Origin: Terriglobia bacterium
GTDB lineage: Bacteria > Acidobacteriota > Terriglobia > UBA7540
Assembly (NCBI GenBank): GCA_036278995.1
Contig: DASUJZ010000101.1
Coordinates: 57,631 to 81,630, forward strand
Direction of reading: 5' to 3'
Length of the DNA: 24,000 nt
In this document: positions 3,248 to 21,892 of the stretch, piece after piece
Layout of the letters: each line of letters begins with the position of its first letter
Numbering within the stretch: position 1 is the first letter of the stretch
Notes under the pieces: model-generated
What the model was told of the DNA's origin: nothing
Seen by the model: only the letters and a program-made list of their open reading frames with translations
Databases searched by the model: none
Translations under genes and position numbers: made by a program

Positions 3248-3351
3248 TCCTTTCCGGGGCATGCCGCTCCGGCCGCGTGTGAGCGTGCCCTGGCTCTGCG
3301 TAATCACGATGAGAGGTCCGGCTGCTGCAGATTAGCGCTCGGATGTAATTG

Positions 3352-6411: not shown

Positions 6412-6513
6412 GCGCCACACAACGACAATGCGCCTGAAATATCATAAGGCAAGGAGTGTAAATCGAGCCAAGATACCAGGAATGGTCGCGCTGTAAGGCA
6501 GGAAACGCAGCGC

Positions 6514-7674
6514 TTAGTGTTTACTGGGCGCAGGACTCAGCCGGCCCTTGCGGATATAGAACGCGTTGCCGCGCCACTCGATGCGCCGTTTGGAAAAGCT
6601 GGCGGCCAGGATGAAGAATGCGAGCGCATCCCAGACAGGCACCAGCCACCATTTCCTGCTCAGCAGTGGATCTTTCAGGCCCCACACGCCCACAGTCCAG
6701 GCGACAGCCATCCGAAGCATCAGGTACGCTGACCAAAATCCCGCTGTTGCCTCCCATGTGTGGTGCACCAGGGTGGCCGCAATGATCCACGGCAGCGCCT
6801 GGGTAAGCAGCCTGCCCAATTGGCCCCACGGCCGCGAATTGGTTACTCCAACGGCCCAGCGAAGCTGGTGTCTGATTGCGTCGAACAGCCCTTGCGATGG
6901 AGAAATGCTTGCAACTGTGTAAGGGATCAACTCGACTTCGTGACCCACATCAGCGATCCGGCGCCCCAGTTCAAAATCATCGGAAAAGCAATCCGCAATG
7001 GCCTCGAATCCGCCCAGTTCTTCGAGGCGCTCGGCGGTTACGGCGATGCTTGCGCCCAGCGCAAATTTCACGCCTTCCAACTGCCGGGCCACGACCACGC
7101 CGGCCATAAAGTCGGAAGTGAGGCCGACGGCCTCGATCTCAGAAGGCAGTTTGGGTTCCGGCTGCATGCGGTACATGCAGGTGACAGCGCCGACGTTCGG
7201 GTTCCGAAACGGGTTGACAATGGCCCGCAGATAATCGGGTTCAACCCGAATGTCGCTGTCACTCAGCACCAGGACCGGGTAGCGGGCTTCGTGCGACAGC
7301 CGGCACAATTGGCGCACCTTGCGGTTCCAGCCCTTCCACGGAGAACCAACAAAGAGGCGGATGGCCCGGCTGGGGTAATCCTCGATGAGCCTCCGGATGA
7401 CAGGGATAACGGGGTCATCGACGTCCATCACTCCGAAGAGTATTTCGTATTCGGGGTAATCGAGATTGCAGAAGCTGGCGAAGTTCTCGTAGCATTCGCG
7501 GTCCATCCCCTTGACAGGTTTCAGGATGCTGACCGGCGGGCAGAAGTCAGGATGGCGATCGACAGGACGGCGGAAATACCTCCAGGCGCTGAAGAGCGCG
7601 GCCAGATAGTAAAGCAGTGAAACGATAGCGCCAACTGAAACAACCCATTCCACCAGGTGAAAGTGCGCATGCAT
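6514..7674 (-). CDS. HpnI-like GT21-family glycosyltransferase, paralog B
   Basis: 386 aa, ATG at 7674. It has an N-terminal TM segment, then PPVSILKPVKGMDRECYENFASFCNLDYPEYEILFG, LSDSDIRVEPDYL, FSDDFELGRRIA, QLRWAVGVTNSR, and C-terminal TM segments. It aligns by eye along its whole length with paralog A, with roughly one third of residues identical. Confidence 0.7.
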   Translation of the reverse strand: MHAHFHLVEWVVSVGAIVSLLYYLAALFSAWRYFRRPVDRHPDFCPPVSILKPVKGMDRECYENFASFCNLDYPEYEILFGVMDVDDPVIPVIRRLIEDYPSRAIRLFVGSPWKGWNRKVRQLCRLSHEARYPVLVLSDSDIRVEPDYLRAIVNPFRNPNVGAVTCMYRMQPEPKLPSEIEAVGLTSDFMAGVVVARQLEGVKFALGASIAVTAERLEELGGFEAIADCFSDDFELGRRIADVGHEVELIPYTVASISPSQGLFDAIRHQLRWAVGVTNSRPWGQLGRLLTQALPWIIAATLVHHTWEATAGFWSAYLMLRMAVAWTVGVWGLKDPLLSRKWWLVPVWDALAFFILAASFSKRRIEWRGNAFYIRKGRLSPAPSKH

Positions 7675-7692
7675 TGCCTTCGTCCTATGTTT

Positions 7693-8064
7693 TCAGATGC
7701 AAACCAGAGCTACTCCGATACAGACGATGATGACGCCGGTCCACCTCTCCCGGTTTACATACTCGCCCAGTAGAAATTTAGCGCCCAGAGCGCCAACCGC
7801 GTAACTCGCAGCCGTAGCTGGAACCACCAGGCTCACGTTGGCCCACGAAAGAAGCGCCAGCAGCGAAAAAAACGCCACGGCCATCAGGCCCATTCCGATC
7901 CACAGCCACTTCACTCTGAGAGCCCGGCCGAGAAACCGCAACACGCTGAGCGGGGTGAAGCTCTTGACGTCGCCAACGGTTTTCATGGCGAGAGAAAGGG
8001 AAATATCGCCCATCTGTCCCGCCACCACAATAATCGCGATAAATAGGGCTGTGCGACCCGTCAT
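7693..8064 (-). CDS. Half-size (4-TM) EamA/DMT-superfamily membrane protein, subunit 2 of a putative heterodimer
   Basis: 123 aa with four hydrophobic segments. The C-terminal block LSWANVSLVVPATAASYAVGALGAKFLLGEYVNRERWTGVIIVCIGVALV is EamA-like. Its ATG (8064) overlaps the stop of the upstream paralog (ATGA on the minus strand, 8061-8064). Confidence 0.7.
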   Translation of the reverse strand: MTGRTALFIAIIVVAGQMGDISLSLAMKTVGDVKSFTPLSVLRFLGRALRVKWLWIGMGLMAVAFFSLLALLSWANVSLVVPATAASYAVGALGAKFLLGEYVNRERWTGVIIVCIGVALVCI

Positions 8065-8477
8065 GAATTATGACTTGTGCTGGGGTGCGTCCTGCCAACC
8101 ACGAAAACGCCTACGCAGATCAGGCCAACGCCGATCCAACGTGTGGGCGGGACATGCTCTCCCAGAAAGAAGTATCCCATCAGGGCCACCAAAACATAGC
8201 CAATCGCCGAGGCAGGCGAAACGTAGCTGAAGTCCGCCCAGGAAAGCACAAGCATGTAGCTCACCAGGAAGAGCATCAGGAGGGCAATAGCCAACCAGAT
8301 GGTCCCACTGCCAAACGCTCTGGCAAAAAAAGCGATTGCGCTCCCCAGAAACCAGTGCTGGGGTTCACCCAGCCGTTTCATACCCCGGCTCAGCAGGACA
8401 TCACCCGATGACCCAAAGGTGACCATAAACGCCAGCAGGATGAGGGTCTTGCCTCGCTGGCTTTTCAATTCAGACAT
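8061..8477 (-). CDS. Half-size (4-TM) EamA/DMT-superfamily membrane protein, subunit 1 of a putative heterodimer
   Basis: 138 aa with four hydrophobic segments. The EamA-like end is LSWADFSYVSPASAIGYVLVALMGYFFLGEHVPPTRWIGVGLICVGVFVV. It starts 20 nt after the hpnJ stop. Size, topology and pairing resemble ArnE/ArnF-type small DMT pairs. Confidence 0.7.
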   Translation of the reverse strand: MSELKSQRGKTLILLAFMVTFGSSGDVLLSRGMKRLGEPQHWFLGSAIAFFARAFGSGTIWLAIALLMLFLVSYMLVLSWADFSYVSPASAIGYVLVALMGYFFLGEHVPPTRWIGVGLICVGVFVVGRTHPSTSHNS

Positions 8478-8497
8478 GAGCTTTCATAGCCCAAAAA

Positions 8498-10006
8498 TCA
8501 AGTGTTCGATGGAGGTTCGGAGGCCAGATCGATCGCTGGCACGCTGATGGAGGTTGTTTTAAAGGGGCCATTGCGGGCAAAGTTGAGCCGCTCGCTTCGC
8601 AACCGGAGAAACTCGACGCCTTCATGGTACAGGCGCTTCCGCTCATCTTTGTCCCACAGCGCCTTGCGCACGATTCGCCACACCACGCGTGGCCTGAAGT
8701 AATACTCATCATAAAAACGGTTGACGGCGTCCATCATCTGCGCGGTGGTCAGGCCCGGATACTGGATGTGCGGCAATTGGTGGCCGCTGGTGTCGGACAT
8801 GGGAAGACTCACCAGGTGGCCGGCTTGCAACAACTGGTTGTACATCTCCGTCCCCGGGTAGCCGTGCGCGAGGGAAACCTGGATGGTTTCCGAGTCGAGT
8901 TCCCTGGCAAAATCGATGGTGCGCTGAATGGTTTCCGGGGTCTCACCCGGCAATCCGATGATGAAGTCAGCGTGGATTGCGATGCCGAGCTTCTTACAGT
9001 TTTTCGCAAACCTGCGGCCCATTTCCGCCGTTGCGCCCTTCTTGATGTTCTTCAGGATCTGGTCATCACCGGATTCGAAGCCCACAATTAAGAGGCGGGC
9101 GCCTCCGTCAGCCATGGCTTTCAGCGTCTCGTAGTCGCTGTGGACGCGGGCCGTGCAGGACCACCTGAAGCCCAACGGCTTGAACTTCTTTGAAAGTTCG
9201 ATGACACGGTCTTTGCGGATATTGAAAGTATCGTCATCGAAGAAAAACTCCTTTGCCTGCGGGAATAGCTTAAGCGCCTGCCGGATTTCCGTCGCGACGT
9301 TATCTACCGAACGTGTGCGCCACGCGTGGCCGGAAAGGGTCTGCGGCCACAGACAGAAGGTGCAAAGGGCGGGACAGCCGCGTGAAGAATAGAAAGAGAC
9401 GAAGGGATGAAGCAGAAACGGAACGTTGTAATTCTCAATGGTCAGGTTGCGCTTGTAAACCTCTGTGGCGAACGGCAGGCGGTCCAGGTCTTCGGTCTGC
9501 AGTTCCTTTCGCGGCGGGTTGTGGATGATTTTTCCATCCTTGCGATAACTCGCACCGGGAATTTCGCTGAGCGGCTTACCCTGCGCAAACTCCACTACTG
9601 CATAATCAAATTCGCCGCGCACAATAAAATCGATATCGTCGCTGGCCATTAAACTCTGATCGGGCTTCACCTGCACCGGCGGCCCCACAAAAGCTATCTG
9701 AAGGCTCGGCTTCGCCTCTTTCATCCGGCGGGCAAGCTCGAGGTCGTTCTCGAAACCGACAGCGGACGTGAAAAGGACGACGAATTCATAGTCCCTGGCG
9801 ATTTCGACGGTCTGCTGAGGAGTGACTTTGTGCGGAGGAGCATCGAGCAGGCGGCTGCCGGGCAGCATTCCCGCGGGATAGGTGAGCCAGACGGGATACC
9901 AATACGACTCAATCTCGCGTGTTGCGGGCCACCTCGAACTTGCGCCCCCATCAAACTTCTCGAAACTCGGAGGATTCAGCAACAGCGTCTTCAAAACAGA
10001 CACCAT
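8498..10006 (-). CDS. hpnJ: Hopanoid-associated B12-binding radical SAM protein HpnJ (cyclitol-ether forming enzyme family)
   Basis: 502 aa. The N-terminus LKTLLLNPPSFEKFDGGASSRWPATREIESYWYPVWLTYPAGML matches the HpnJ-family N-terminus as I remember it (..APSF.GFDGGAGSRYQA.REI.SFWYPTWLA). The radical SAM CxxxCxxC motif is present (SSRGCPALCTFCLWP), preceded by a B12-binding-like Rossmann segment. AAGGGAG lies just upstream of the ATG (revcomp of 10009-10015). It is adjacent to HpnI-type GTs and faces the shc operon. Confidence 0.75.
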   Translation of the reverse strand: MVSVLKTLLLNPPSFEKFDGGASSRWPATREIESYWYPVWLTYPAGMLPGSRLLDAPPHKVTPQQTVEIARDYEFVVLFTSAVGFENDLELARRMKEAKPSLQIAFVGPPVQVKPDQSLMASDDIDFIVRGEFDYAVVEFAQGKPLSEIPGASYRKDGKIIHNPPRKELQTEDLDRLPFATEVYKRNLTIENYNVPFLLHPFVSFYSSRGCPALCTFCLWPQTLSGHAWRTRSVDNVATEIRQALKLFPQAKEFFFDDDTFNIRKDRVIELSKKFKPLGFRWSCTARVHSDYETLKAMADGGARLLIVGFESGDDQILKNIKKGATAEMGRRFAKNCKKLGIAIHADFIIGLPGETPETIQRTIDFARELDSETIQVSLAHGYPGTEMYNQLLQAGHLVSLPMSDTSGHQLPHIQYPGLTTAQMMDAVNRFYDEYYFRPRVVWRIVRKALWDKDERKRLYHEGVEFLRLRSERLNFARNGPFKTTSISVPAIDLASEPPSNT

Positions 10007-11214: not shown

Positions 11215-11524
11215 AGTTAAAGGGTCGGCCGGTTTGGGCTAGGAAGTAACCTGAGGTAGGCCTCCGTTGTGGGAACAATCCATAATCGGGTTATTGTACC
11301 AAAAGTCTCGGCAAGATGTATAGACAGTAAATGCACGACAATCGAACCCCCTCGGAAATTTGATGCATCGTTTTATCAAACGGCTACATCAATCAATCTG
11401 GAGGTTAGATGCGCCGGGCGGCCAGGAAAGCAGTACCGAACCTCTGCTTATCTTGACGGTGCGGAAAGACCATGAGAGGATTATCTTTAGAGGGTATGTA
11501 GCAGGAAAGGATGATGTCAAAACA

Positions 11525-12493
11525 ATGAACGTGGCTCCTCACGTTGAGAACTCTGTCCGCGCTGAACCAAGAACTTTGATGCTGTTACGACCCAGGGGCT
11601 TTTGCGCGGGTGTGATCCGCGCGATTGACGTTGTCCGCATGGTTCTCGACAAACTGGGACCTCCCGTTTATGTGCGCCGGGAGATTGTTCACAACCGCTA
11701 CGTTGTGGACGAACTGGCCGGCCAGGGCGCCATATTCGTTGAAAATCTGGAAGAGGTGCCGACAGGAGCAGCGGTTATTTTCAGCGCGCATGGAGTCTCC
11801 CCTGCAGTGCGCGAAGAAGCGCGCGCCCGGCAGCTCCGCATCATTGACGCCACCTGCCCGCTGGTGACCAAGGTCCATCTGGAGGTGATCCGGTACGCCC
11901 GCGAAAAATACACCATTGTCCTTATTGGCCATCGCGACCACGATGAAATGATCGGCACGCTGGGGGAAGCCCCCGAGTCCATCCAGTTGATTTGCTCGGT
12001 GGAAGACGTGGAGGCGCTGGACCCACCCGATCCCAACCGGATTGTGTATTTGACGCAGACCACATTGAGTCTGGATGATACCGCGGAAATCGTCGAGCGG
12101 CTCAAATACCGATTTCCTGCCATTATCGGGCCGCCGGGACAGGATATATGCTACGCCACACAGAACCGGCAGATGGCCGTCAAGGCCATTGCCCCCAAGG
12201 CTGATGGAATCCTCGTGGTGGGAGCCCAGAATAGTTCCAATTCGAACCGGCTGGTGGAAGTTGCCCGGCGGGGAGGGACGATGGCCTACTTGATCGGCAA
12301 CGCTGACGACATCCTTCCGGAATGGGTGAGCGGCCAGCGACGTATCGGTGTCACCGCAGGCGCGTCCACGCCGGAAGTGCTGGTTCGGCAGGTCGTCGAC
12401 CGGCTGAAGGAATGGGGCTTTACGCGAGTAGAGGAAGTAGAGTGGATCGAAGAAGACGTCCGGTTTGCCCTGCCTGCGGAATTGAAGGTCTAA
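11525..12493 (+). CDS. ispH: 4-hydroxy-3-methylbut-2-enyl diphosphate reductase (IspH/LytB)
   Basis: The three conserved Cys contexts are present: PRGFCAGVIRAI, IDATCPLVTKVH and DICYATQNRQ. The SSNSNRL and VTAGASTPE blocks are also present. The track ORF starts at 11360, but its first 55 codons fall in a lower-GC, non-homologous stretch. ATG 11525 (MNVAPH...) or ATG 11579 (MLLRPRGFCAGV, which matches the E. coli-type N-terminus) are the realistic starts. Confidence 0.9.
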   Translation: MNVAPHVENSVRAEPRTLMLLRPRGFCAGVIRAIDVVRMVLDKLGPPVYVRREIVHNRYVVDELAGQGAIFVENLEEVPTGAAVIFSAHGVSPAVREEARARQLRIIDATCPLVTKVHLEVIRYAREKYTIVLIGHRDHDEMIGTLGEAPESIQLICSVEDVEALDPPDPNRIVYLTQTTLSLDDTAEIVERLKYRFPAIIGPPGQDICYATQNRQMAVKAIAPKADGILVVGAQNSSNSNRLVEVARRGGTMAYLIGNADDILPEWVSGQRRIGVTAGASTPEVLVRQVVDRLKEWGFTRVEEVEWIEEDVRFALPAELKV

Positions 12494-12515: not shown

Positions 12516-14558
12516 GTGTTCATGACACAGGAAGCGGGAGTTGAGCTCGAACCGTTCAAAAACGGCCGTGCGGTTGGAGCAGTGGATGCTGGCCTCGATC
12601 AGCGTGTACGACGGGCGGTTGACAGCGCGACCGAGCATCTGCTTTCCTTGCAATCGCCGGAGGGCTACTGGGTCGGCGAACTACAGGCTGACTCCACCCT
12701 GGAATCCGACTATATATTTTTTCTCTACGTGGCCGGCCAGTTTGCCCCGGGGCGCATCGCGAAGCTATCGAACTACATCCGCCGCAGACAGCTCCCGGAT
12801 GGTGGATGGAATATCTATCAGGGCGGCCCTTCCGAGCTCAATGCCACTGTCAAAGCTTACGTCGCGCTCAAGCTGGCCGGTAACTCGCCTGAGGAGCCTC
12901 ACATGGTGGCTGCCCGCCAGAGGATCCATGACCTCGGTGGGCTTGAAGAGACCAACTCGTACACGCGTTTTTACCTGGCGCTGGGTGGCGCCCTCGAATG
13001 GAAGCACGTGCCGGCAATTCCCCCGGAGTTAATGCTTTCGCCGTGCTGGTTCTTCTTCAACGTTTACTCCCTGTCATCGTGGACGCGGGCGATCGTGGTG
13101 CCGCTCACGATCCTTTATGCTCTGCGCCCGCCGTGGGGTTTGCCGGAGCACGCGCGCGTTGATGAGCTTTTTCGCAATCCCTCGAGACATATTCCGGTCT
13201 TTGACTGGGACCGAAAGATCATCACCTGGCGAAATCTGTTTCTGGCCATTGACCGTCTGTTCAAACTGCACGAATCCCTCCCCTGGAGACCTTTCCGCAA
13301 GATGGCGCTTGCGCGGGCGCAGAACTGGCTGCTGGAACACCTGGAGCGGAGCGAGGGGCTGGGGGCTATTTACCCGGCCATGCTCAACTCGCTCTTTGCC
13401 TTGCTGGCTATGGGGTATCCGGCTGACGATCCCCTAACGACACGTGAACTCGAACATCTGCGCGGCTTCGAGGTTGAAAAGGGCGACACGATCTCTCTTC
13501 AACCATGCCTCTCACCGGTCTGGGACACCGCAATTGCAATGTACTCGCTGGAGGAGGCGGGGCTGCCTTCAGATCATCCGGCCCTGGTCAATGCCGCGCG
13601 GTGGCTGCTCGATCGACAAATTGTCGGTCCCGGCGACTGGCAAGTTAAGAACCAGGACGCTCCTCCGGGAGGCTGGGCGTTTGAATTTCGGAATGATTTT
13701 TATCCCGACGTAGACGACGCCTCCTTTGTGATGATGGCGCTGCAACGGGTTGCCTACCCGGACAAGCTCCGGCTTGAGCATGCACTCCGGCGCGGATGCC
13801 GGTGGCTGGTCAGCATGCAGAACCGCGACGGCGGCTGGGGCGCCTTCGACCGCGACAACGATTGCGCAGTGCTTACGCGTGTGCCCTTTGCTGATCACAA
13901 TGCCATGATTGATCCCTCAACTGCGGATGTCACCGCGCGGGTGCTGGAGTGCATCGCGCACCTAGGGTGGCCGGCTTCCCACCCCGTGGTGCAGCGCGCG
14001 CTCGACTATCTGCGGAAGGAGCAGACGGCAGAAGGCGCCTGGTACGGACGCTGGGGTGTGAACTACGTCTATGGAACCAGCGGTGTCCTGCGGATGCTGG
14101 AAGCGTTCGACCTAGGCAAGACCCCGGAAGCCCAGAAGGGGTCTGACTGGCTCTGTTCCGTTCAGAATCGAGGGGGTGGTTTTGGAGAATCATGCGCCTC
14201 CTACGACGATCCTTCCCTGAAGGGAAGAGGGCCCTGCACACCCTCGCAAACCGCATGGGGCTTGATCGGGTTGCTGGCAACCCGCAGCGTCGATGATCCG
14301 GCCGTCATCAATGCCGTGCAGTATCTGCTGGATGAACAAACCGAGGAGGGATTCTGGAAAGAAAGCGAGTTTACGGGGACCGGCTTCCCGAGTGTCTTCT
14401 ATCTTCGTTACACCCTCTACCGCAATACCTTCCCACTTTATGCGTTGGCACACTATCAGAACCTCCGCCTCAAAAGGGAGCAGACGGACTCCATTAGCGT
14501 TTCGCCAGCCGAATTCGAGCGGCATAATGGAAATGGAAAGAAAAACGGGAGGAATTGA
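12516..14558 (+). CDS. shc: Squalene-hopene cyclase
   Basis: 680 aa. The catalytic DxDD motif is in FYPDVDDASFVMMAL (DVDD = 13707-13718). There are multiple QW-type repeats (RRQLPDGGWNIYQGG; SMQNRDGGWGAFD; KEQTAEGAWYGRWG; SVQNRGGGFGES; DEQTEEGFWKE). GTG at 12516; ATG at 12522 is an alternative start. Confidence 0.95.
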   Translation: MFMTQEAGVELEPFKNGRAVGAVDAGLDQRVRRAVDSATEHLLSLQSPEGYWVGELQADSTLESDYIFFLYVAGQFAPGRIAKLSNYIRRRQLPDGGWNIYQGGPSELNATVKAYVALKLAGNSPEEPHMVAARQRIHDLGGLEETNSYTRFYLALGGALEWKHVPAIPPELMLSPCWFFFNVYSLSSWTRAIVVPLTILYALRPPWGLPEHARVDELFRNPSRHIPVFDWDRKIITWRNLFLAIDRLFKLHESLPWRPFRKMALARAQNWLLEHLERSEGLGAIYPAMLNSLFALLAMGYPADDPLTTRELEHLRGFEVEKGDTISLQPCLSPVWDTAIAMYSLEEAGLPSDHPALVNAARWLLDRQIVGPGDWQVKNQDAPPGGWAFEFRNDFYPDVDDASFVMMALQRVAYPDKLRLEHALRRGCRWLVSMQNRDGGWGAFDRDNDCAVLTRVPFADHNAMIDPSTADVTARVLECIAHLGWPASHPVVQRALDYLRKEQTAEGAWYGRWGVNYVYGTSGVLRMLEAFDLGKTPEAQKGSDWLCSVQNRGGGFGESCASYDDPSLKGRGPCTPSQTAWGLIGLLATRSVDDPAVINAVQYLLDEQTEEGFWKESEFTGTGFPSVFYLRYTLYRNTFPLYALAHYQNLRLKREQTDSISVSPAEFERHNGNGKKNGRN

Positions 14559-15607
14559 TGAGATTTCCGCTCAGTTTGACGGCAAATCTGAGTACCTACA
14601 TAGCTGGAAAGAGACTTCATCGCGTTGATAAATTTCCTTTGGTCATGATGCTGGAACCGCTGCATGCCTGCAATCTAACCTGCACGGGATGTGGACGCAT
14701 TCGAGAATACAAAGATACCATCCGCGACAAGCTGACCGTCGAGCAGTGCCTCAACGCAGTGGATGAGTGCGGCGCACCTGTCGTTTCCATTTGCGGCGGC
14801 GAGCCGATGATCTATCCTGACCTGCCGCGCCTGGTGAGTGAGATCCTGGACCGCAAAAAAAACATCTACCTGTGCACCAACGGGATGTTCATTCGAAAGC
14901 GTCTTCAGGATTACAAGCCCACCTCACGGATGTTCTTCAACATCCATCTGGACGGCATGGAGGCTACTCACGACCTCTGCGTGGAACGCAAAGGGGTCTT
15001 CCGCGAGGCCGTCGCGGCCATCAAGTTCGCCAAAGACCGCGGCTTCCAGGTGTGTACCAACACAACTATTTACAAGCAGACTGACCTGAACGAGATCGCA
15101 GAGCTGTTCGAATTCCTGCGGGGCCTCGGTGTGGACGGGCACATGCTTTCACCGGCCTATTCCTATCTTGCTGTCCAGACCAAAGAAATCTTCATGTCTC
15201 GCCAGGAAATTCATGCCAAGTTTCGCGAGGCCAGCCGGCTGTTGGAAAAATATTGCGTGATGACTTCGCCAATCTATCTGGAATATCTACGCGGCGAGCG
15301 CGAACTGGAATGTACGGCCTGGGGCAATCCTACTTACAATCCGCGCGGCTGGAAGGGGCCGTGCTACCTGATCACTGACGGGCATTACGCCACCTTCAAG
15401 GAGTTTATGGAATCCACGCCCTGGGAAAACTACGGCCCAGGGAAGGATCCTCGATGCGAACACTGTATGGTCCACGTGGGCTTTGAACCTTCCGCGGTGC
15501 TGGGCGCCAACCGCAACTTCCCCGATACCTGGAAACTCCTCAGATGGCAGCTTACAAAACCGAAGGGCGGACACAACAGCAACAGTGCCCTTTACGCGAA
15601 TGGATGA
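14558..15607 (+). CDS. hpnH: Adenosylhopane synthase, radical SAM protein HpnH
   Basis: The N-terminus MRFPLSLTANLSTYIAGKRL...FPLVMMLEPLHACNLTCTGCGRIREY carries CxxxCxxC, and the C-terminal Cys-rich region is CYLITDGHY...DPRCEHCMVHVGFEP. ATG 14558 overlaps the shc stop (TGATG) and is preceded by GGGAGGA (14547-14553). The track start TTG 14555 is one codon longer. Confidence 0.9.
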   Translation: MRFPLSLTANLSTYIAGKRLHRVDKFPLVMMLEPLHACNLTCTGCGRIREYKDTIRDKLTVEQCLNAVDECGAPVVSICGGEPMIYPDLPRLVSEILDRKKNIYLCTNGMFIRKRLQDYKPTSRMFFNIHLDGMEATHDLCVERKGVFREAVAAIKFAKDRGFQVCTNTTIYKQTDLNEIAELFEFLRGLGVDGHMLSPAYSYLAVQTKEIFMSRQEIHAKFREASRLLEKYCVMTSPIYLEYLRGERELECTAWGNPTYNPRGWKGPCYLITDGHYATFKEFMESTPWENYGPGKDPRCEHCMVHVGFEPSAVLGANRNFPDTWKLLRWQLTKPKGGHNSNSALYANG

Positions 15608-16656
15608 CCGGGATGACTTCTCTTGTAACAGGGGCAAGCGGATTTGTGGGCAGCCACGTAGCGCGGATGCTGGCTGATCGTGGCGATCAGGTCCGCGTTC
15701 TGGTGCGGCCGCAAAGCAGCCTTTTCGCGCTTGAAGGAGTACCGGTAGAAACGGTCTTCGGCGACCTGCGAGATGCCAGCTCGCTGGGCGCTGCTGTCGA
15801 AGGCGTCGATCGAGTCTTTCATGTTGCAGCCGATTATCGGCTGGGCGCTACCCGTCCTCAGGAAATCTACGATTCCAACGTAACCGGCACGCGAAATCTG
15901 CTGGAAACAGCAGGCAGGGAGAAGGTTCAGCGAATTATCGTTACGAGCAGCATCGCCACCATTGCGGTGGACCGCGGCTTGACCTTGCCGAACGAGGCAA
16001 CTGAGGCGCGCGTCGAGGAGATGATTGGTCATTACAAGCGCTCAAAATTCCTCGCCGAGAAGGAAGCGCTGAAGGCGGCACGCGAAGGCATGCCGGTGGT
16101 GATTGTCAACCCCACCACTCCGGTCGGTCCGGGTGACTGGAAGCCGACGCCGACTGGACGCATTATCGTGGACTTTCTAAACGGCAGGATTCCGGCATAC
16201 GTGGAAACCGGTCTCAACTGGGTACCGGTTGAAGATGTTGCGGTTGGGCACTGGCTGGCCGCGGAGCGCGGGCGCGTCGGCGAGCGGTACATCCTCGGCG
16301 GCCGCAACATGCTGCTGAAAGAAGTTCTCGACATCCTGGCGCGAATCAGCGGACGCACCAGCCCTCGCCTTCGCCTGCCGCATTCTGTCGCCATGGCAGC
16401 AGGTTACGCTGACCACATCTTTTCACGCATCGTTAACCGTCCGCCACGAATCCCGCTGGAGGGGGTTCGGATGGCCCGGCACAAGATGTTCGTGGACTGC
16501 TCAAAAGCTTCCGCCGAGCTTGGTTTCAAGGCTGGCCCGGTGGAGGCCGCACTGGAAAGGGCAGTCGCTTGGTACCTACAGCGCGGTTACGCCAACAATA
16601 ACCATCCTGCGACAAGCTTCGAACGGGCGGCATTAGCAAGCCGTGAACGGAAATGA
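15604..16656 (+). CDS. hpnA: Hopanoid-associated NAD(P)-dependent sugar epimerase/reductase (extended SDR) HpnA
   Basis: Rossmann motif LVTGASGFVGSHVARML, followed by GDLRD..SL, VFHVAADYRL and YKRSKFLAE (YxxxK). ATG 15604 overlaps the hpnH stop (ATGA, 15604-15607); ATG 15613 is an alternative. The track ORF from 15544 would overlap hpnH by 64 nt and adds no homologous sequence. Confidence 0.8.
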   Translation: MTGMTSLVTGASGFVGSHVARMLADRGDQVRVLVRPQSSLFALEGVPVETVFGDLRDASSLGAAVEGVDRVFHVAADYRLGATRPQEIYDSNVTGTRNLLETAGREKVQRIIVTSSIATIAVDRGLTLPNEATEARVEEMIGHYKRSKFLAEKEALKAAREGMPVVIVNPTTPVGPGDWKPTPTGRIIVDFLNGRIPAYVETGLNWVPVEDVAVGHWLAAERGRVGERYILGGRNMLLKEVLDILARISGRTSPRLRLPHSVAMAAGYADHIFSRIVNRPPRIPLEGVRMARHKMFVDCSKASAELGFKAGPVEAALERAVAWYLQRGYANNNHPATSFERAALASRERK

Positions 16657-17408
16657 AAATTCTAGCGACATTTGCGGTGGAGTGGGAATTTAAACCCTGG
16701 CGTCGCCTGGGAAAATTTCAACCAACTCGCGGCAACGGTCGGGTCTTTTTTGCACAAGCGGCCGGGAATGAGATCACGGTCGTCCTCACCGGAATCGGAG
16801 CGGCGAACGCGGCGCGGGCCATCAGAAGTTTGGTCGATTACCAGCCGGACATCTGTATCGCGTCGGGACTGGCAGGCGGACTGAAACCCAAACACCGCTC
16901 GGGAGAAATTCTGGCTGCAAGGAGAGTCCGAGCAGAAAGCGCCAGAATCTCATACGAAAGTGCCGAGGCTCTTTTCAGCGCTGCCGTTGAGTGCGGAGCA
17001 AAACCGGTGGACCAATTTATTTCCAGCGGGCATGTGATTCGTACGGCGCAGGAGAAATTCTGCCTCGGAGTTGCAGCGGACGCAGTTGAGATGGAAACTT
17101 GTGCCGTGATGAAGGAAATGCATGCGCTGGGCGTGCCCTGCGTCGCCGTCCGAGCCATCGCCGATCCCGCGGGCATGGACATACCTTGCGACTTTGACCG
17201 CGCTATGGATGACTCGGGACACATCCGGATTGTCCAGGTCTTGAGTCAGGTTGCTGGTGATCCGCGACGAGTCTGGCCGCTCGCGCAGTTGGGCTTGAGA
17301 AGTACGCGCGCCGCCACAGCGCTTGCCCGATACCTTGAGGGTTTCACAACCTGGTTGGCCGGACATATAGAGATAACGGACCTGAGCGTCCAAACAATCA
17401 GCCAATGA
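16653..17408 (+). CDS. hpnG: Hopanoid-associated nucleosidase/phosphorylase HpnG (adenosylhopane to ribosylhopane)
   Basis: 251 aa with PNP_UDP_1-like blocks: VVLTGIGAANAARA, IASGLAGGL, DAVEMETCAV, VAVRAIADPA. Its ATG overlaps the hpnA stop (ATGA, 16653-16656). The position after hpnH/hpnA fits the hpn cluster context. Confidence 0.75.
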   Translation: MKILATFAVEWEFKPWRRLGKFQPTRGNGRVFFAQAAGNEITVVLTGIGAANAARAIRSLVDYQPDICIASGLAGGLKPKHRSGEILAARRVRAESARISYESAEALFSAAVECGAKPVDQFISSGHVIRTAQEKFCLGVAADAVEMETCAVMKEMHALGVPCVAVRAIADPAGMDIPCDFDRAMDDSGHIRIVQVLSQVAGDPRRVWPLAQLGLRSTRAATALARYLEGFTTWLAGHIEITDLSVQTISQ

Positions 17409-18511
17409 CAACCACCAGAACAGAAGCCGGAGCAGCGTCGGGGGTCCAGCAGCAGACCAAGCGGATGTGGGCTGGAGTCTACCGCGGACAGGGTCGGGTG
17501 GTTACTGAGGAGGTTCCCCTGCCGGAGATTGGGGCCGGCGAGGTGCTGGTGCGAGTCCGCGCCTGTGGCATTTGCGGGACTGATATTAAGAAGATCAAGC
17601 ACGGATTTCTGCCTCCGCCGCAGATATTCGGTCACGAAATTGCCGGAACGGTCGAGGCTGTTGGCGACGGGGTGCGCCAGTGGCGGCCCGGCGACCGCGT
17701 GCTGACCTTCCATCACATCCCCTGCGGCGATTGCTTCTATTGCGCTCGGAAGCTCTATTCACAGTGCCCCACCTACAAGAAGGTGGGAGTCACCAGCGGC
17801 TTCCGCCCCAGTGGCGGTGGCTTTGCGGAATACGTCCGTGTCATGGATTGGATCGCCGAACGCGGGATGATCCGGATCCCGCCGGAGGTCAGCTTTGAGC
17901 AAGCCTCCTTTGTCGAGCCGGTCAACACGTGCCTGAAGGCCGTCTACAAGGCACGAATCGAGGCGCGCGATACTGTTCTGGTAGTGGGCCAGGGGCCTAT
18001 CGGCATGCTGCTGATGATGTTGGCCCGCATCTGCGGCGGGAGCAGAGTGATGACGAGCGATCCGATGCCCGCGCGCTGCCGGAAGAGCGTGGAACTCGGA
18101 GCTGAGGAGGCCTTTGATCCTGCGGGCGTGGACCTGGTTGAAGCCATTCGCGCTCGGACTTCCGGCCGTGGTGCGGATGTCGTGCTGGTTGCCGCGCCCC
18201 AGCGTGAACTCCTGGAGCAGGCGCTGACGCTTACCCGTCCCGGAGGCCGTGTCCTGCTTTTTGCATATAACGATCCGCTGCTGCGCGTTGAATTCCCTGC
18301 CGCCACAGTGGGTATCGACGAAAAGGAAATTCTCGGCAGTTATAGCGCTTCATACGATCTGCAGCAAGAATCCGCCCGGTTGATTTTTGAACGCGTCCTT
18401 CCGGTGGAGAAGTTAATTTCTCACCGGCTCCCACTTTCTGAAATCGAGCAGGCTATACATCTGGCAGCTCATCCTACTGAGGAGTCTCTTAAAATCATAG
18501 TGGTGCCTTAA
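17405..18511 (+). CDS. Zinc-dependent medium-chain dehydrogenase/reductase (polyol/threonine-dehydrogenase-like), NAD(H)-type fingerprint
   Basis: 368 aa. Catalytic zinc ligands are in ACGICGTD, FGHEIAG and FVEPVNTC. The structural zinc motif is CGDCFYCARKLYSQC (CxxCxxCx7C). The Rossmann motif is VVGQGPIGM, followed by RVMTSD (an acidic residue at the end of beta-2). ATG 17405 overlaps the hpnG stop (ATGA). ATG 17465 (MWAGVYRG...) is an alternative start. Confidence 0.8.
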   Translation: MTTTRTEAGAASGVQQQTKRMWAGVYRGQGRVVTEEVPLPEIGAGEVLVRVRACGICGTDIKKIKHGFLPPPQIFGHEIAGTVEAVGDGVRQWRPGDRVLTFHHIPCGDCFYCARKLYSQCPTYKKVGVTSGFRPSGGGFAEYVRVMDWIAERGMIRIPPEVSFEQASFVEPVNTCLKAVYKARIEARDTVLVVGQGPIGMLLMMLARICGGSRVMTSDPMPARCRKSVELGAEEAFDPAGVDLVEAIRARTSGRGADVVLVAAPQRELLEQALTLTRPGGRVLLFAYNDPLLRVEFPAATVGIDEKEILGSYSASYDLQQESARLIFERVLPVEKLISHRLPLSEIEQAIHLAAHPTEESLKIIVVP

Positions 18512-19569
18512 TGGAAACTGATCTCAACGGCGAGATGAACGCCGCGGTGTTGTACGGTCGCGAAGACCTGAAAATTGAACGAATTCCGATACCAACCTTC
18601 ACTCCTGACGAAGTCCTGGTGCGGGTGAAGGTGGCCCTGACATGCGGAACCGACCTGAAAGTCTGGCGGCAAGGTTATCACGCCAGGATGATTGTGCCTC
18701 CGGCCGTTTTTGGACATGAACTCTCCGGAATTGTGGAAGCGGTTGGAAGCGATGTGGATAACGGGCTAAAGCCCGGCGCCTGGGTGGTGCCTGCGAATTC
18801 TGCCCCCTGCAATAAATGCATCTTCTGCCGCAAGGGCCAGTCGAACCTGTGCAATTCGCTTCTGTTTAACAATGGCGCCTACGCTGAGTACATCCGGATT
18901 CCAGGCCGAATCGTCCGTGAGAATACTCTCGAAATTCCTCCCCATGTTCCCTTTCGAGACGCCGCTTTGGTGGAACCGCTTGCCTGCATCCTGCGCGGCA
19001 TTGAAGAAACAGGGATTCAAGCCGGCGATACCACAGTTATTGTGGGATGCGGGCCCATCGGGCTGAAGTTCATCCGAGTTCTGTCCGTCCGCGGCGTGAG
19101 GGTGATCGCCCTCGGCAAGAGGAAGAGCCAGACTCGTACTGCGGAACAACTGGGTGCCTATGCCGCATTTGACGTTTCACGGATGGACAACCCCGTTTCT
19201 GCGGTGCGCCAGCTTACCGAAGGAGGCCTTGGCGCCGACTCGGTAATTGAGGCAGTGGGAATCCCACAGACCTGGCAATGGGCCGTGCAGATGGTGCGGC
19301 GCGGCGGCACGGTCAACCTGTTCGGAGGGTGCCCGCGCGGCAGCCAGGTGCAATTTGACCCGTCGCTGCTTCACTACTCAGAAATCACCATACGGTCGAC
19401 CTTTCATCACACTCCGCAATTCGTTCGCAAGGCCCTCGATGCCGTGGCAAAAGGGGAAATCCGAGCCTCAGACTTTGTGACGGGCGACATCCCGCTGGAT
19501 GAATTGCCTGATTTCTTCCAAAAAATGAAGCACCGGAATGGCGAATTAAAGATGGCGGTCATCCCGTGA
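18511..19569 (+). CDS. Zinc-dependent medium-chain dehydrogenase/reductase (polyol-dehydrogenase-like), NADP(H)-type fingerprint
   Basis: 352 aa. Zinc and Rossmann motifs present: ALTCGTD, FGHELSG, LVEPLAC, CNKCIFCRKGQSNLC and IVGCGPIGL. The Rossmann motif is followed by RVIALGKRKS, which has no acidic residue and a basic cluster. Its ATG overlaps the stop of the upstream dehydrogenase (TAATG, 18509-18513). Confidence 0.8.
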   Translation: METDLNGEMNAAVLYGREDLKIERIPIPTFTPDEVLVRVKVALTCGTDLKVWRQGYHARMIVPPAVFGHELSGIVEAVGSDVDNGLKPGAWVVPANSAPCNKCIFCRKGQSNLCNSLLFNNGAYAEYIRIPGRIVRENTLEIPPHVPFRDAALVEPLACILRGIEETGIQAGDTTVIVGCGPIGLKFIRVLSVRGVRVIALGKRKSQTRTAEQLGAYAAFDVSRMDNPVSAVRQLTEGGLGADSVIEAVGIPQTWQWAVQMVRRGGTVNLFGGCPRGSQVQFDPSLLHYSEITIRSTFHHTPQFVRKALDAVAKGEIRASDFVTGDIPLDELPDFFQKMKHRNGELKMAVIP

Positions 19570-21868: not shown

Positions 21869-21892
21869 CACAAGCCTCAGGAGATTCCCGTG

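What the first reader, a model, noticed from the sequence alone, without database searches (positions are those of the whole stretch)
17405..19569. Two zinc-MDR dehydrogenases translationally fused to the end of the hpnH-hpnA-hpnG operon: candidates for the unassigned ribosylhopane-to-bacteriohopanetetrol reduction
Seen in sequence: the hpnG stop overlaps the first dehydrogenase start (ATGA, 17405-17408). The first dehydrogenase stop overlaps the second start (TAATG, 18509-18513). Both proteins keep full catalytic-zinc, structural-zinc (CxxCxxCx7C) and GxGxxG signatures, so both look active. Established knowledge: HpnH makes adenosylhopane and HpnG releases ribosylhopane. The canonical hpn gene set (hpnA-hpnP, hpnR) as I know it contains no MDR dehydrogenase. 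The next step is reduction of the open-chain aldehyde form of ribosylhopane to BHT. From memory, this step has been demonstrated only in cell-free extracts as an NADPH-dependent activity, with no gene assigned. Inference: sorbitol/polyol-type MDR enzymes catalyse exactly aldose/ketose-to-alditol chemistry, and their position directly after hpnG fits that missing step. Alternative roles are oxidation of BHT-type polyol side chains or redox tailoring of the aminosugar/cyclitol head group.
Basis: partly seen in the sequence, partly recalled or inferred. Interest (0 to 1): 0.78.

Follow-up and report, generated by a model that had tools for sequence, protein, structure and literature searches.

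The report
Two dehydrogenases inside acidobacterial hopanoid operon
Two zinc dehydrogenase genes are a conserved, tightly coupled part of the hopanoid-lipid operon of Acidobacteriota; they were already listed in 2017 as unknown genes "ug1/ug2", and they are plausible but unproven candidates for the still unassigned redox step(s) that finish the hopanoid side chain.

Summary
hpnG, MDR1 (17405-18511) and MDR2 (18511-19569) overlap by ATGA and TAATG. Both proteins keep the catalytic-zinc, structural-zinc and GxGxxG motifs.

The gene order hpnA-hpnG-MDR1-MDR2 occurs in all 80 species-level genomes recovered. It also occurs in 41 of 44 informative metagenome loci, in a lineage only about 40% identical, and next to hpnCDE in an Armatimonadota genome. 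In most relatives hpnC-hpnD-hpnE follow, so the pair sits inside the operon, not at its end.

The association is not new. Sinninghe Damsté et al. 2017 listed these genes as ug1 and ug2, "function not established". No paper I could search assigns ribosylhopane-to-BHT reduction to any gene.

New here: MDR1 has a conserved NAD-type cofactor site (Asp219). MDR2 has a conserved NADP-type site (Gly-Lys-Arg). Only MDR2 therefore fits an NADPH reductase, and MDR1 should oxidise something.

- Both enzymes belong to the polyol/threonine-dehydrogenase branch, which acts on secondary alcohols, not to the aldehyde reductases.
- Per the 2017 paper, C. thermophilum makes BHT without ug2.
- The pair occasionally occurs without hpn genes nearby.

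Verdict: a real hopanoid-linked enzyme pair, with a plausible but untested function.

The parts
17405..18511 (+). MDR1 (= 'ug1' of Sinninghe Damsté 2017). A 368-aa zinc MDR dehydrogenase of the threonine/polyol-dehydrogenase type with a predicted NAD(H) site.
   Evidence: PF08240 and PF00107 hits. Best NCBIfam matches are TDH at 161 bits and IolM at 154 bits, both far below their cut-offs. Best PDB matches are 4cpd, 4ej6 and 2dq4. The AlphaFold2 model has pLDDT 83.9, and Foldseek top hits are 4ejm and threonine dehydrogenases. An exact match exists in a Terriglobia MAG (P0001).
18511..19569 (+). MDR2 (= 'ug2'). A 352-aa zinc MDR dehydrogenase of the sorbitol-dehydrogenase/ketose-reductase type with a predicted NADP(H) site.
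   Evidence: PF08240 and PF00107 hits. Best NCBIfam match is IolM at 164 bits against a cut-off of 450. Best PDB matches are 4ej6, the NADP(H) ketose reductase 1e3j, and 1pl6. It is 30% identical to MDR1.
17405..17408 (+). ATGA overlap of the hpnG stop codon with the MDR1 start codon.
   Evidence: Conserved in 54 of 81 loci.
18509..18513 (+). TAATG overlap of the MDR1 stop codon with the MDR2 start codon.
   Evidence: A 4-nt or 1-nt overlap is found in 58 of 80 loci.
18059..18061 (+). MDR1 Asp219 codon (GAT) at the end of Rossmann strand beta-2. This is the NAD(H)-specificity determinant.
   Evidence: The position is acidic in 87 of 87 orthologues: Asp in 84 and Glu in 3. It is also acidic in the distant pairs.
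19114..19122 (+). MDR2 Gly202-Lys203-Arg204 at the same cofactor position. This is an NADP(H)-type signature.
   Evidence: The pattern is G/A then K/R then R with almost no exceptions in 80 orthologues. One of the 80 has Asp at 202, and three lack K/R at 203 or R at 204. It aligns to Asp203 of human SDH and to Ala199-Arg200-Ser201 of the NADP ketose reductase 1E3J.
17723..17767 (+). MDR1 structural-zinc motif C107-x2-C110-x2-C113-x7-C121.
   Evidence: Read from the translation. Each cysteine is kept in 86 of 87 orthologues.
18808..18852 (+). MDR2 structural-zinc motif C100-x2-C103-x2-C106-x7-C114.
   Evidence: Read from the translation. Kept in 80 of 80 orthologues.
16653..17408 (+). HpnG-like adenosylhopane nucleosidase/phosphorylase, directly upstream of MDR1.
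   Evidence: The best family is TIGR03468 HpnG, but at 102 bits it is below the cut-off of 187. It also hits PF01048. It is the least conserved gene of the operon, with a median identity of 39%.
15604..16656 (+). hpnA, a hopanoid-associated SDR 'sugar epimerase'. The start is inferred at the ATGA overlap; the ORF is open from 15544.
   Evidence: TIGR03466 at 446 bits, above the cut-off of 368. Junction shown.
14558..15607 (+). hpnH, the radical-SAM adenosylhopane synthase.
   Evidence: TIGR03470 at 435 bits. A GGGAGG sequence lies upstream of the ATG at 14558.
12516..14558 (+). shc, squalene-hopene cyclase.
   Evidence: TIGR01507 at 767 bits.
11360..12493 (+). ispH, the first gene of the + strand run. 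The true start is probably downstream of 11360.
   Evidence: NF002189 at 455 bits. The family match begins at residue 66 and the Pfam LytB match at residue 75.
5197..10006 (-). Divergent hopanoid genes: two HpnI-like GT2 genes (5197-6420 and 6514-7674), two small EamA/ArnE-like membrane proteins (7693-8064 and 8061-8477), and hpnJ (8498-10006).
   Evidence: HpnJ scores 718 bits, and the HpnI-like genes score 307 and 333 bits. One search covers the small membrane proteins.

Best explanation
MDR1 and MDR2 are a two-enzyme redox module that belongs to the acidobacterial hopanoid pathway. They most likely act on the ribose-derived C32-C35 side chain that HpnG exposes.

**Shown.**
- Both are intact zinc MDR dehydrogenases of the polyol/threonine-dehydrogenase branch.
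- They are co-transcribed with overlapping reading frames, in the order shc-hpnH-hpnA-hpnG-MDR1-MDR2.
- The arrangement is conserved across Acidobacteriota.
- They are as conserved as Shc and HpnH.

**Inferred from cofactor-site residues.** MDR1 uses NAD+ and so works in the oxidising direction in vivo. MDR2 uses NADPH and so works in the reducing direction.

**Inferred mechanism.** MDR2 reduces a side-chain carbonyl. The best single candidate is C-35 of ring-opened ribosylhopane, which would give bacteriohopanetetrol. I put this sub-claim at about 0.3. MDR1 oxidises a side-chain CH-OH: either a secondary hydroxyl such as C-34, or the C-35 hemiacetal of ribosylhopane. Together the pair would set the oxidation state, and possibly the configuration, of the polyol. 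This is the same logic as NADPH-reductase/NAD+-dehydrogenase couples in polyol pathways.
For: **Synteny.**
- 80 of 80 GTDB species loci (56-87% identity) carry hpnA-hpnG-MDR1, and all but one truncated contig carry MDR2 next.
- hpnCDE follow MDR2 in about 65 of those loci.
- In the metagenome sample (41-57% identity), 50 of 55 loci with enough room have MDR2 after MDR1. Of 44 informative pairs, 41 have hpn neighbours.
- L167 (43% and 39% identity) keeps shc-hpnA-hpnG-MDR1-MDR2-hpnCDE.
- An Armatimonadota MAG has the pair upstream of hpnCDE.

**Coupling and conservation.** The start/stop overlaps are conserved. Median identities are MDR1 63% and MDR2 70%, against Shc 61% and HpnH 71.5%.

**Cofactor signatures.**

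**Enzyme class.**

**The step is unassigned.**. The Methylobacterium cell-free activity was NADPH-dependent (Bodlenner 2015; from my own knowledge, because the paper is not held).

**Independent report.** PMC5462960 records ug1/ug2 in the hopanoid-producing acidobacterial subdivisions SD1, SD2 and SD3.
Against: - There are no biochemical or genetic data for any member of the family.
- Both zinc sites are Cys-His-Glu. That type is typical of enzymes acting on secondary alcohols or hemiacetals (SDH, TDH, glucose dehydrogenase), not of aldehyde reductases. The Ahr model scores only 68-74 bits.
- MDR2 has Phe-His-His where SDH and ketose reductase have the substrate-binding Phe-Arg-Tyr.
- BHT is made without these genes in C. 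thermophilum, which lacks ug2. From my own knowledge, the same holds for the proteobacterial model organisms.
- When the operon is split, the pair follows hpnCDE in L081, L103, L119, L129 and L131. According to the 2017 paper, ug1 and ug2 can themselves be separated.
- Pairs at 41-53% identity occur with no hpn gene within 5-10 kb: L083, L085, L086, L096 and L120.
Confidence: 0.45

Rival explanations
1. Epimerase couple. MDR1 (NAD+) oxidises one secondary hydroxyl of the side chain or of the ribosyl ring to a ketone. MDR2 (NADPH) re-reduces it from the opposite face. The result is a BHT stereoisomer, and neither enzyme is the ribosylhopane reductase.
For: The pair has opposite, conserved cofactor signatures and an obligate two-gene architecture even at 40% identity. 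Both enzymes are of the secondary-alcohol type. BHT itself can be made without these genes.
Against: No BHT stereoisomer is reported for Acidobacteria in the searchable literature. The 2017 study used Rohmer degradation, which erases that information. There is no direct evidence that the two enzymes share a substrate.
Confidence: 0.2
2. Head-group tailoring. The pair modifies the aminosugar or cyclitol moiety made by the HpnI and HpnJ enzymes encoded in the same neighbourhood. This could compensate for the absence of hpnK in these bacteria.
For: IolM (scyllo-inosose 3-dehydrogenase, a cyclitol enzyme) is the best or second-best NCBIfam match. Two hpnI-like genes and hpnJ lie 7-12 kb upstream, and no hpnK is in the window. 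SD1 and SD3 Acidobacteria have hpnI and hpnJ but lack hpnK.
Against: The IolM scores (154-164 bits) are far below the cut-off of 450. The pair is coupled to hpnG and hpnCDE, not to hpnI/hpnJ, which lie on the other strand. The Armatimonadota locus has the pair with hpnCDE and no hpnI or hpnJ within 10 kb.
Confidence: 0.12
3. Unrelated soluble metabolism. The pair is an old polyol, sugar or threonine redox module that merely rides in the hopanoid operon.
For: The module exists without hpn neighbours in several lineages. A single MDR1-like gene sits in a cyanobacterial contig with no hpn genes. JGI annotates the family as L-iditol 2-dehydrogenase. A threonine-aldolase-like gene precedes the pair in Armatimonadota.
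Against: Conserved overlapping start/stop codons, and a fixed position between hpnG and hpnC in more than 120 independent loci down to 40% identity, are hard to explain by hitch-hiking. No sugar transporter or kinase genes accompany the pair.
Confidence: 0.08
4. Helper of squalene synthesis, for example a redox partner for HpnC, HpnD or HpnE.
For: ug2 was described as preceding hpnC-D-E. The pair stays with hpnCDE when clusters split.
Against: From my own knowledge, HpnC, HpnD and HpnE alone suffice for squalene synthesis in heterologous hosts (Pan et al. 2015, cited in PMC5462960). The 2017 authors also judged ug2 not essential for squalene synthesis. The window lineage keeps the pair with hpnG and without hpnCDE.
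Confidence: 0.05

Closest known systems
ug1 and ug2 of acidobacterial hopanoid gene clusters (Sinninghe Damsté et al. 2017, Front Microbiol 8:968, PMC5462960)
   Same: These are the same genes. ug1 is a Zn-dependent ADH of about 370 aa that follows hpnA-hpnG. ug2 is a Zn-binding ADH of about 350 aa that precedes hpnC-D-E. Both are present in the hopanoid-producing subdivisions SD1, SD2 and SD3.
   Different: That paper left the function 'not established' and suggested HpnA for the ribosylhopane-to-BHT step. It did not analyse cofactor sites, coupling or distribution outside Acidobacteria.
Sorbitol dehydrogenase and NADP(H)-dependent ketose reductase (PDB 1PL6, 1E3J)
   Same: The fold, the Cys-His-Glu(+Glu155) catalytic zinc site and the Rossmann motif are shared. 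The cofactor pocket of MDR2 matches the NADP-type pocket of 1E3J.
   Different: Identity is only about 25-30%. MDR2 has Phe298-His-His where SDH has the substrate-binding Phe297-Arg-Tyr, and Val51 and Met60 where SDH has Tyr50 and Phe59. Both window proteins keep a structural zinc site. The genomic context is a lipid operon, not sugar catabolism.
L-threonine 3-dehydrogenase (TIGR00692; PDB 2DQ4, 2DFV, 3GFB)
   Same: It is the top NCBIfam match and among the top structural matches for MDR1. It has an NAD-type Asp and a structural zinc site.
   Different: The score is 161 bits against a cut-off of 458. No kbl partner gene is present. MDR1 has a family-specific insertion, KKVGVTSGFRPSGGGFAEY.
NADPH-dependent ribosylhopane-reducing activity of Methylobacterium organophilum extracts (Bodlenner et al. 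2015, cited)
   Same: It is the reaction proposed for MDR2, and it matches the NADPH preference predicted for MDR2.
   Different: No gene is known for that activity. From my own knowledge, Methylobacterium hpn clusters contain no MDR. The closest non-acidobacterial relatives found here are not proteobacterial.
Polyol pathway logic (an NADPH aldose/ketose reductase plus an NAD+ polyol dehydrogenase, as in the fungal L-arabinose pathway)
   Same: A reducing NADPH enzyme is paired with an oxidising NAD+ polyol-type MDR acting on the same carbon chain.
   Different: In known pathways the aldose reductase is an aldo-keto reductase, not an MDR. The substrates are soluble sugars.

Membership tests
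Zinc-containing medium-chain dehydrogenase/reductase (MDR) superfamily | An ADH_N (GroES-like) domain plus an ADH_zinc_N Rossmann domain | tested here: met
   PF08240 scores 99.5 and 82.4 bits. PF00107 scores 74.4 and 74.2 bits. All are above the gathering cut-offs.
Zinc-containing medium-chain dehydrogenase/reductase (MDR) superfamily | Catalytic zinc ligands, the structural-zinc Cys4 lobe and GxGxxG | tested here: met
   MDR1 has C54/H77/E78/E171, C107/110/113/121 and G195-G200. MDR2 has C45/H69/E70/E155, C100/103/106/114 and G179-G184. All are conserved in 80-87 orthologues, except that MDR2 C45 is Asp in 16 of 80.
Polyol/threonine dehydrogenase branch of the MDRs (SDH, TDH, ketose reductase) | The third zinc ligand is Glu next to His (HE motif), and a conserved Glu-Pro replaces the second Cys of classical ADHs | tested here: met
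   GHE and EP motifs are invariant in both proteins. The best PDB and NCBIfam matches are TDH, SDH, ketose reductase and IolM.
L-threonine 3-dehydrogenase (TIGR00692 / NF003808 equivalogs) | Score at or above the curated cut-off | tested here: not met
   MDR1 scores 161 against 458 and 158 against 380. MDR2 scores 141 against 458.
scyllo-inosose 3-dehydrogenase IolM (NF041097) | Score at or above the curated cut-off | tested here: not met
   The scores are 154 and 164 bits against a cut-off of 450.
Sorbitol dehydrogenase (human SDH type) | Substrate-binding residues Tyr50, Phe59 and Phe297-Arg298-Tyr299 | tested here: not met
   MDR2 has Val51, Met60 and Phe298-His299-His300 (invariant). MDR1 has Ser-Tyr-Ser-Ala in the corresponding segment.
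MDR aldehyde reductases (Ahr/YjgB type, NF047908) | Score at or above the cut-off, and a Cys-His-Cys catalytic zinc site | tested here: not met
   The scores are 68 and 74 bits against a cut-off of 470. Glu, not Cys, sits at the third ligand position.
Hopanoid biosynthesis (hpn) gene set | Conserved clustering with shc, hpnH, hpnG and hpnCDE across species | tested here: met
   80 of 80 genome loci and 41 of 44 informative metagenome loci show it, as do L167 and the Armatimonadota locus.
Hopanoid biosynthesis (hpn) gene set | A demonstrated effect on hopanoid structure (mutant or enzyme assay) | not testable with these tools
   No experimental report was found in the searchable literature.
Ribosylhopane reductase (activity known, gene unknown) | NADPH-dependent reduction of ribosylhopane to BHT | tested here: inconclusive
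   MDR2 has an NADP-type pocket, and MDR1 does not. Substrate specificity cannot be tested in silico. The MDR2 AlphaFold2 model was too poor to use (pLDDT 65.8).

The most novel reading that the evidence does not exclude
MDR2 is the long-sought NADPH-dependent ribosylhopane reductase (BHT synthase) of Acidobacteriota. MDR1 is an NAD+-dependent hopanoid side-chain dehydrogenase. Together they would form a lipid-anchored 'polyol pathway'. That pathway would control the oxidation state or stereochemistry of soil bacteriohopanepolyols, for example keto- or lactone-BHPs or BHT stereoisomers.
Probability: 0.25. Interest if true: 0.8.

Novelty: new member of a known kind. Interest (0 to 1): 0.55.

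Why it matters
Bacteriohopanepolyols are major membrane lipids and widely used geochemical biomarkers. Acidobacteriota are among the most abundant soil bacteria. The step from ribosylhopane to bacteriohopanetetrol is the one side-chain step with no gene. Current reviews still call it unassigned or non-enzymatic.

This pair gives two concrete, strongly conserved candidates. It also gives a testable prediction: MDR2 is NADPH-dependent and reducing, and MDR1 is NAD+-dependent and oxidising. If the prediction holds, it would fill the gap at least for one phylum, and it could explain side-chain variants in soil BHP records. If it fails, it still removes a long-standing pair of 'unknown genes' (ug1/ug2) from the candidate list.

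Tried and rejected
1. **HpnG-MDR1 gene fusion as Rosetta-stone evidence.** The 602-aa relative P0131 is fused to a sugar-1-phosphate nucleotidyltransferase, not to HpnG. P0187 is a 249-aa fragment that reads from the end of HpnG into MDR1. With an ATGA junction this is most likely a frameshift or read-through. I did not use it as evidence.
2. **Filing the proteins as TDH, IolM, SDH or Ahr.** All fail the curated cut-offs or lack key residues.
3. **Structure-based pocket analysis.** The MDR1 model is good but only confirms the generic TDH/ADH fold. The MDR2 model is poor (pLDDT 65.8), so I did not search with it. The tools do not expose coordinates, so I could not examine a hydrophobic channel.
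4. **Promoter and terminator scan of 10-21 kb.** The counts equal the shuffled expectation, so the scan is uninformative.
5. **Reading Bodlenner 2015 and Liu 2014 to verify NADPH dependence.** Neither paper is held. No other paper in the library states it.
6. **A reported BHT stereoisomer in Acidobacteria.** None was found.
7. **Whole-genome presence/absence profiling against shc.** This is not possible with these tools, which retrieve only local context.

Full report
**1. Observation**

The window carries a + strand run of genes:
- ispH (11360-12493)
- shc (12516-14558)
- hpnH (14555/14558-15607)
- hpnA (15544/15604-16656)
- an HpnG-like gene (16653-17408)
- two zinc MDR dehydrogenases, MDR1 (17405-18511, 368 aa) and MDR2 (18511-19569, 352 aa)

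The three junctions upstream also overlap: TTGATG for shc/hpnH, ATGA for hpnH/hpnA and ATGA for hpnA/hpnG. So shc to MDR2 is one chain of overlapping reading frames. The genes are coupled, not fused.

Both MDRs have the catalytic zinc residues, the CxxCxxCx7C structural-zinc lobe and GxGxxG. The two proteins are 30% identical to each other. MDR1 is identical to a protein of a Terriglobia MAG, so the window comes from an uncultured member of the Acidobacteriota.

The minus strand upstream carries two HpnI-like glycosyltransferases, two small EamA/ArnE-like membrane proteins, HpnJ and a TPR protein. An ArnT-like PMT_2 glycosyltransferase lies on the + strand. No hpnK is present.

**2. Comparative genomics**

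*Genome scan.* I scanned one genome per GTDB species with an MDR1 alignment. The scan hit its 600-stretch limit, and 591 of the stretches encode a relative. All of the best 80 loci (56-87% identity) are labelled Acidobacteriota, Terriglobia or 'Acidiferrales', apart from a few MAGs filed under other phyla. Where the contig allows:
- Every locus shows shc-(hpnH)-hpnA-hpnG-MDR1, and all but one truncated contig show MDR2 next.
- In about 65 of the 80 loci, hpnC-hpnD-hpnE follow MDR2 directly.

So the pair normally sits in the middle of the hopanoid operon. Only the window's own lineage (the window, L001-L003 and L124) has a PEGA-domain gene downstream instead.

*Junctions and conservation.* The ATGA overlap of hpnG and MDR1 is kept in 54 of 81 loci. 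An overlap of MDR1 and MDR2 is kept in 58 of 80. Median identity to the window across 77 species is 63% for MDR1 and 70% for MDR2. For comparison, it is 61% for Shc, 71.5% for HpnH, 65% for HpnA and 39% for HpnG.

*Metagenome scan.* A second scan of metagenome contigs, seeded with distant relatives, returned 80 loci that are mostly 41-57% identical to the window's MDR1.
- 50 of 55 loci with enough room have MDR2 next to MDR1.
- 41 of 44 informative pairs have hpn neighbours, usually in the order ispH-shc-(hpnH)-hpnA-hpnG-MDR1-MDR2-hpnCDE.
- The gene between hpnA and MDR1 is HpnG-like in both loci I checked, L105 and L132.

*Most distant cases.* A frameshift-rich contig with MDR1 at 43% and MDR2 at 39% identity still has shc-hpnA-hpnG-MDR1-MDR2-hpnCDE. 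An Armatimonadota MAG has a threonine-aldolase-like gene, then MDR1, MDR2, an 89-aa ORF and hpnC-hpnD-hpnE.

*Limits of the association.*
- When the cluster is split, the pair goes with hpnCDE in L081, L103, L119, L129 and L131. It goes with hpnG in the window lineage.
- Pairs with no hpn gene within 5-10 kb exist: L083 (TARA marine), L085, L086, L096 and L120.
- Single MDR1-like genes of 43-48% identity occur without a partner, one of them on a cyanobacterial contig.
- Representatives at 42% identity or less are archaeal or Omnitrophota proteins, that is, generic MDRs.

So the pair is an old two-gene module. In Acidobacteriota, and at least once elsewhere, it is built into hopanoid operons.

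**3. Prior knowledge**

Sinninghe Damsté et al. 2017 (PMC5462960) already described 'cluster C' as hpnA, hpnG and ug1, and 'cluster A' as ug2, hpnC, hpnD and hpnE. Their Table S1 lists ug1 as a Zn-dependent alcohol dehydrogenase of about 370 aa and ug2 as a Zn-binding alcohol dehydrogenase of about 350 aa. For both, the function is 'Not established'. They reported ug2 in all SD1 and SD3 strains but not in Chloracidobacterium thermophilum, which nevertheless makes BHT and BHT cyclitol ether. They proposed HpnA, not ug1 or ug2, for the ribosylhopane-to-BHT step.

That is the only paper in the library that mentions hpnG together with an alcohol dehydrogenase. A 2025 survey states that the enzyme converting ribosylhopane to BHT 'has not yet been established'. 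A 2026 review still draws the step as predicted to be non-enzymatic. The gene association is therefore published. The functional proposal is not, as far as I could search.

**4. What the proteins are**

Both proteins belong to the polyol/threonine-dehydrogenase branch of the MDRs.
- Best NCBIfam models are TDH and IolM at 141-164 bits, far below their cut-offs.
- Best solved relatives are 4EJ6, TADH (4CPD), threonine dehydrogenases, the whitefly NADP(H) ketose reductase 1E3J and human SDH.
- The MDR1 AlphaFold2 model (pLDDT 83.9) matches the same set.
- The MDR2 model was poor (pLDDT 65.8), and I did not use it.

The catalytic site is Cys-His-Glu plus the Glu-Pro motif. That is the type found in enzymes oxidising a secondary alcohol or a hemiacetal carbon. 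The aldehyde reductase model Ahr scores only 68-74 bits. Neither protein can be filed as TDH, IolM or SDH. In particular, MDR2 has invariant Phe-His-His where SDH and ketose reductase have the substrate-binding Phe-Arg-Tyr.

**5. Cofactor sites (the main new finding)**

The residue at the end of Rossmann strand beta-2 decides NAD versus NADP preference in this fold. This is established knowledge for MDRs: Asp203 in SDH, and Ala199-Arg200 in the NADP ketose reductase.
- MDR1 has an acidic residue there in 87 of 87 orthologues (Asp219 in 84, Glu in 3). The distant pairs also have one.
- MDR2 has Gly/Ala202, Lys/Arg203 and Arg204 in essentially all 80 orthologues, with a single Asp at 202.

MDR1 is therefore predicted to use NAD(H) and MDR2 NADP(H). 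In cells this usually means that the first oxidises and the second reduces.

**6. Mechanism**

The canonical route needs only one reduction after HpnG: the C-35 aldehyde of ring-opened ribosylhopane is reduced to BHT. Of the two proteins, only MDR2 fits this. It also fits the NADPH dependence I recall for the Methylobacterium cell-free activity (Bodlenner 2015; the paper is not held). MDR1 must then do something else.

Chemically sensible options for MDR1, given its class, are:
- oxidation of a secondary side-chain hydroxyl, for example C-34, which would be the sorbitol-dehydrogenase-type position;
- oxidation of the C-35 hemiacetal to the ribonolactone-type hopanoid, which has been discussed as a pathway side product.

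I therefore commit to this model: a side-chain redox pair acting after HpnG, with MDR2 as the reductase and best candidate for BHT formation, and MDR1 as an NAD+-dependent dehydrogenase. My confidence is 0.45 that the substrate is the side chain. It is about 0.3 that MDR2 is the ribosylhopane reductase.

The main rival is an oxidation/re-reduction epimerase couple (0.2). The others are head-group tailoring with HpnI/HpnJ in these hpnK-less bacteria (0.12), an unrelated soluble polyol module (0.08) and a helper role in squalene synthesis (0.05).

Points against my model:
- the zinc-site class of both enzymes;
- the absence of the pair from other BHT producers;
- the equally strong linkage to hpnCDE;
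- the pairs that have no hpn neighbours.

**7. Verdict**

- Synteny is excellent and the step is still open.
- The association was published in 2017.
- 'Both enzymes' cannot be the one reductase.
- The enzyme class argues mildly against aldehyde reduction.
- The pair cannot be the general solution across bacteria.

These are uncharacterised members of a known enzyme family sitting in a known pathway. Their value is that they make an old open question directly testable in one abundant soil phylum.

Noticed in passing
window 5197-6420, 6514-7674 and 8498-10006 (- strand): Two tandem HpnI-like GT2 genes (307 and 333 bits on TIGR03472; only the second passes the cut-off of 310) lie with hpnJ, but the window has no hpnK deacetylase. 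This matches the 2017 report that SD1 and SD3 Acidobacteria have hpnI and hpnJ without hpnK. It leaves open which composite hopanoid they make.
   Followed up: partly
window 3349-5190 (+), 7693-8064 and 8061-8477 (-); also L081 128-1858 and L083 9885-11633: An ArnT-like PMT_2 (GT-C) glycosyltransferase and a pair of small EamA/ArnE-like membrane proteins accompany the hopanoid genes. The small proteins are probably ug4 and ug5 of the 2017 paper. A PMT_2 gene also lies near the MDR pair in the Armatimonadota and TARA marine loci, and upstream of shc in about half of the acidobacterial loci. This suggests a polyprenyl-phosphate-sugar transfer linked to these clusters.
   Followed up: partly
window 16653-17408; L105 8668-9426; L132 9174-9908: The acidobacterial HpnG-like proteins score only 92-102 bits on TIGR03468, whose cut-off is 187. 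They are by far the least conserved operon member, with a median identity of 39%. They score almost as well on MTA/SAH nucleosidase models. Whether they are hydrolases or phosphorylases is open.
   Followed up: partly
L066, L068, L073, L077 and L079 (about 7.3-8.0 kb); L008, L013, L014, L018 and others: In five species a different, shorter gene that is only 23-30% identical to HpnH occupies the hpnH slot between shc and hpnA. In about 25 species no hpnH lies between shc and hpnA at all.
   Followed up: no
MDR2 orthologues in L007, L015, L037, L043, L052, L054, L066, L068, L069, L072-L074 and L077-L080: The catalytic-zinc Cys45 of MDR2 is replaced by Asp in 16 of 80 species. All other zinc and cofactor residues are kept. 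This may be an altered metal site in part of the family.
   Followed up: partly
L081 8946-9977, L082 683-1714, L090 about 3087-4100: A GntG/low-specificity threonine-aldolase-like PLP enzyme (394 bits on NF041359) sits directly upstream of the MDR pair in the Armatimonadota MAGs and in one metagenome contig. An aldolase acting on an aldehyde next to two dehydrogenases may be meaningful.
   Followed up: no
L096 12260-13803: In one pair without hpn neighbours, MDR2 is followed by a SAM methyltransferase and a PEMT-like phospholipid methyltransferase. That is another lipid-related context.
   Followed up: no
protein P0131 (602 aa): An MDR1-like domain (40% identity) is fused to an N-terminal sugar-1-phosphate nucleotidyltransferase domain. 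This hints that the nearest out-group enzymes act on activated sugars or inositols.
   Followed up: no
window about 21890-24000 (+) and 22079-23539 (-): A long + strand ORF (748 codons open from 21755) runs off the 3' end of the window. By eye it looks like a glycoside hydrolase (rhamnosidase-like). The listed 486-aa minus-strand ORF has no family hit and is probably its antisense shadow.
   Followed up: partly
window 11360-11580: The ispH ORF starts at a TTG about 65-75 codons before the family matches begin (residue 66 in NCBIfam, 75 in Pfam LytB). The real start is probably downstream. That would leave a 150-300 nt untranslated region between the divergent TPR gene and ispH, where the operon promoter should lie.
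   Followed up: no
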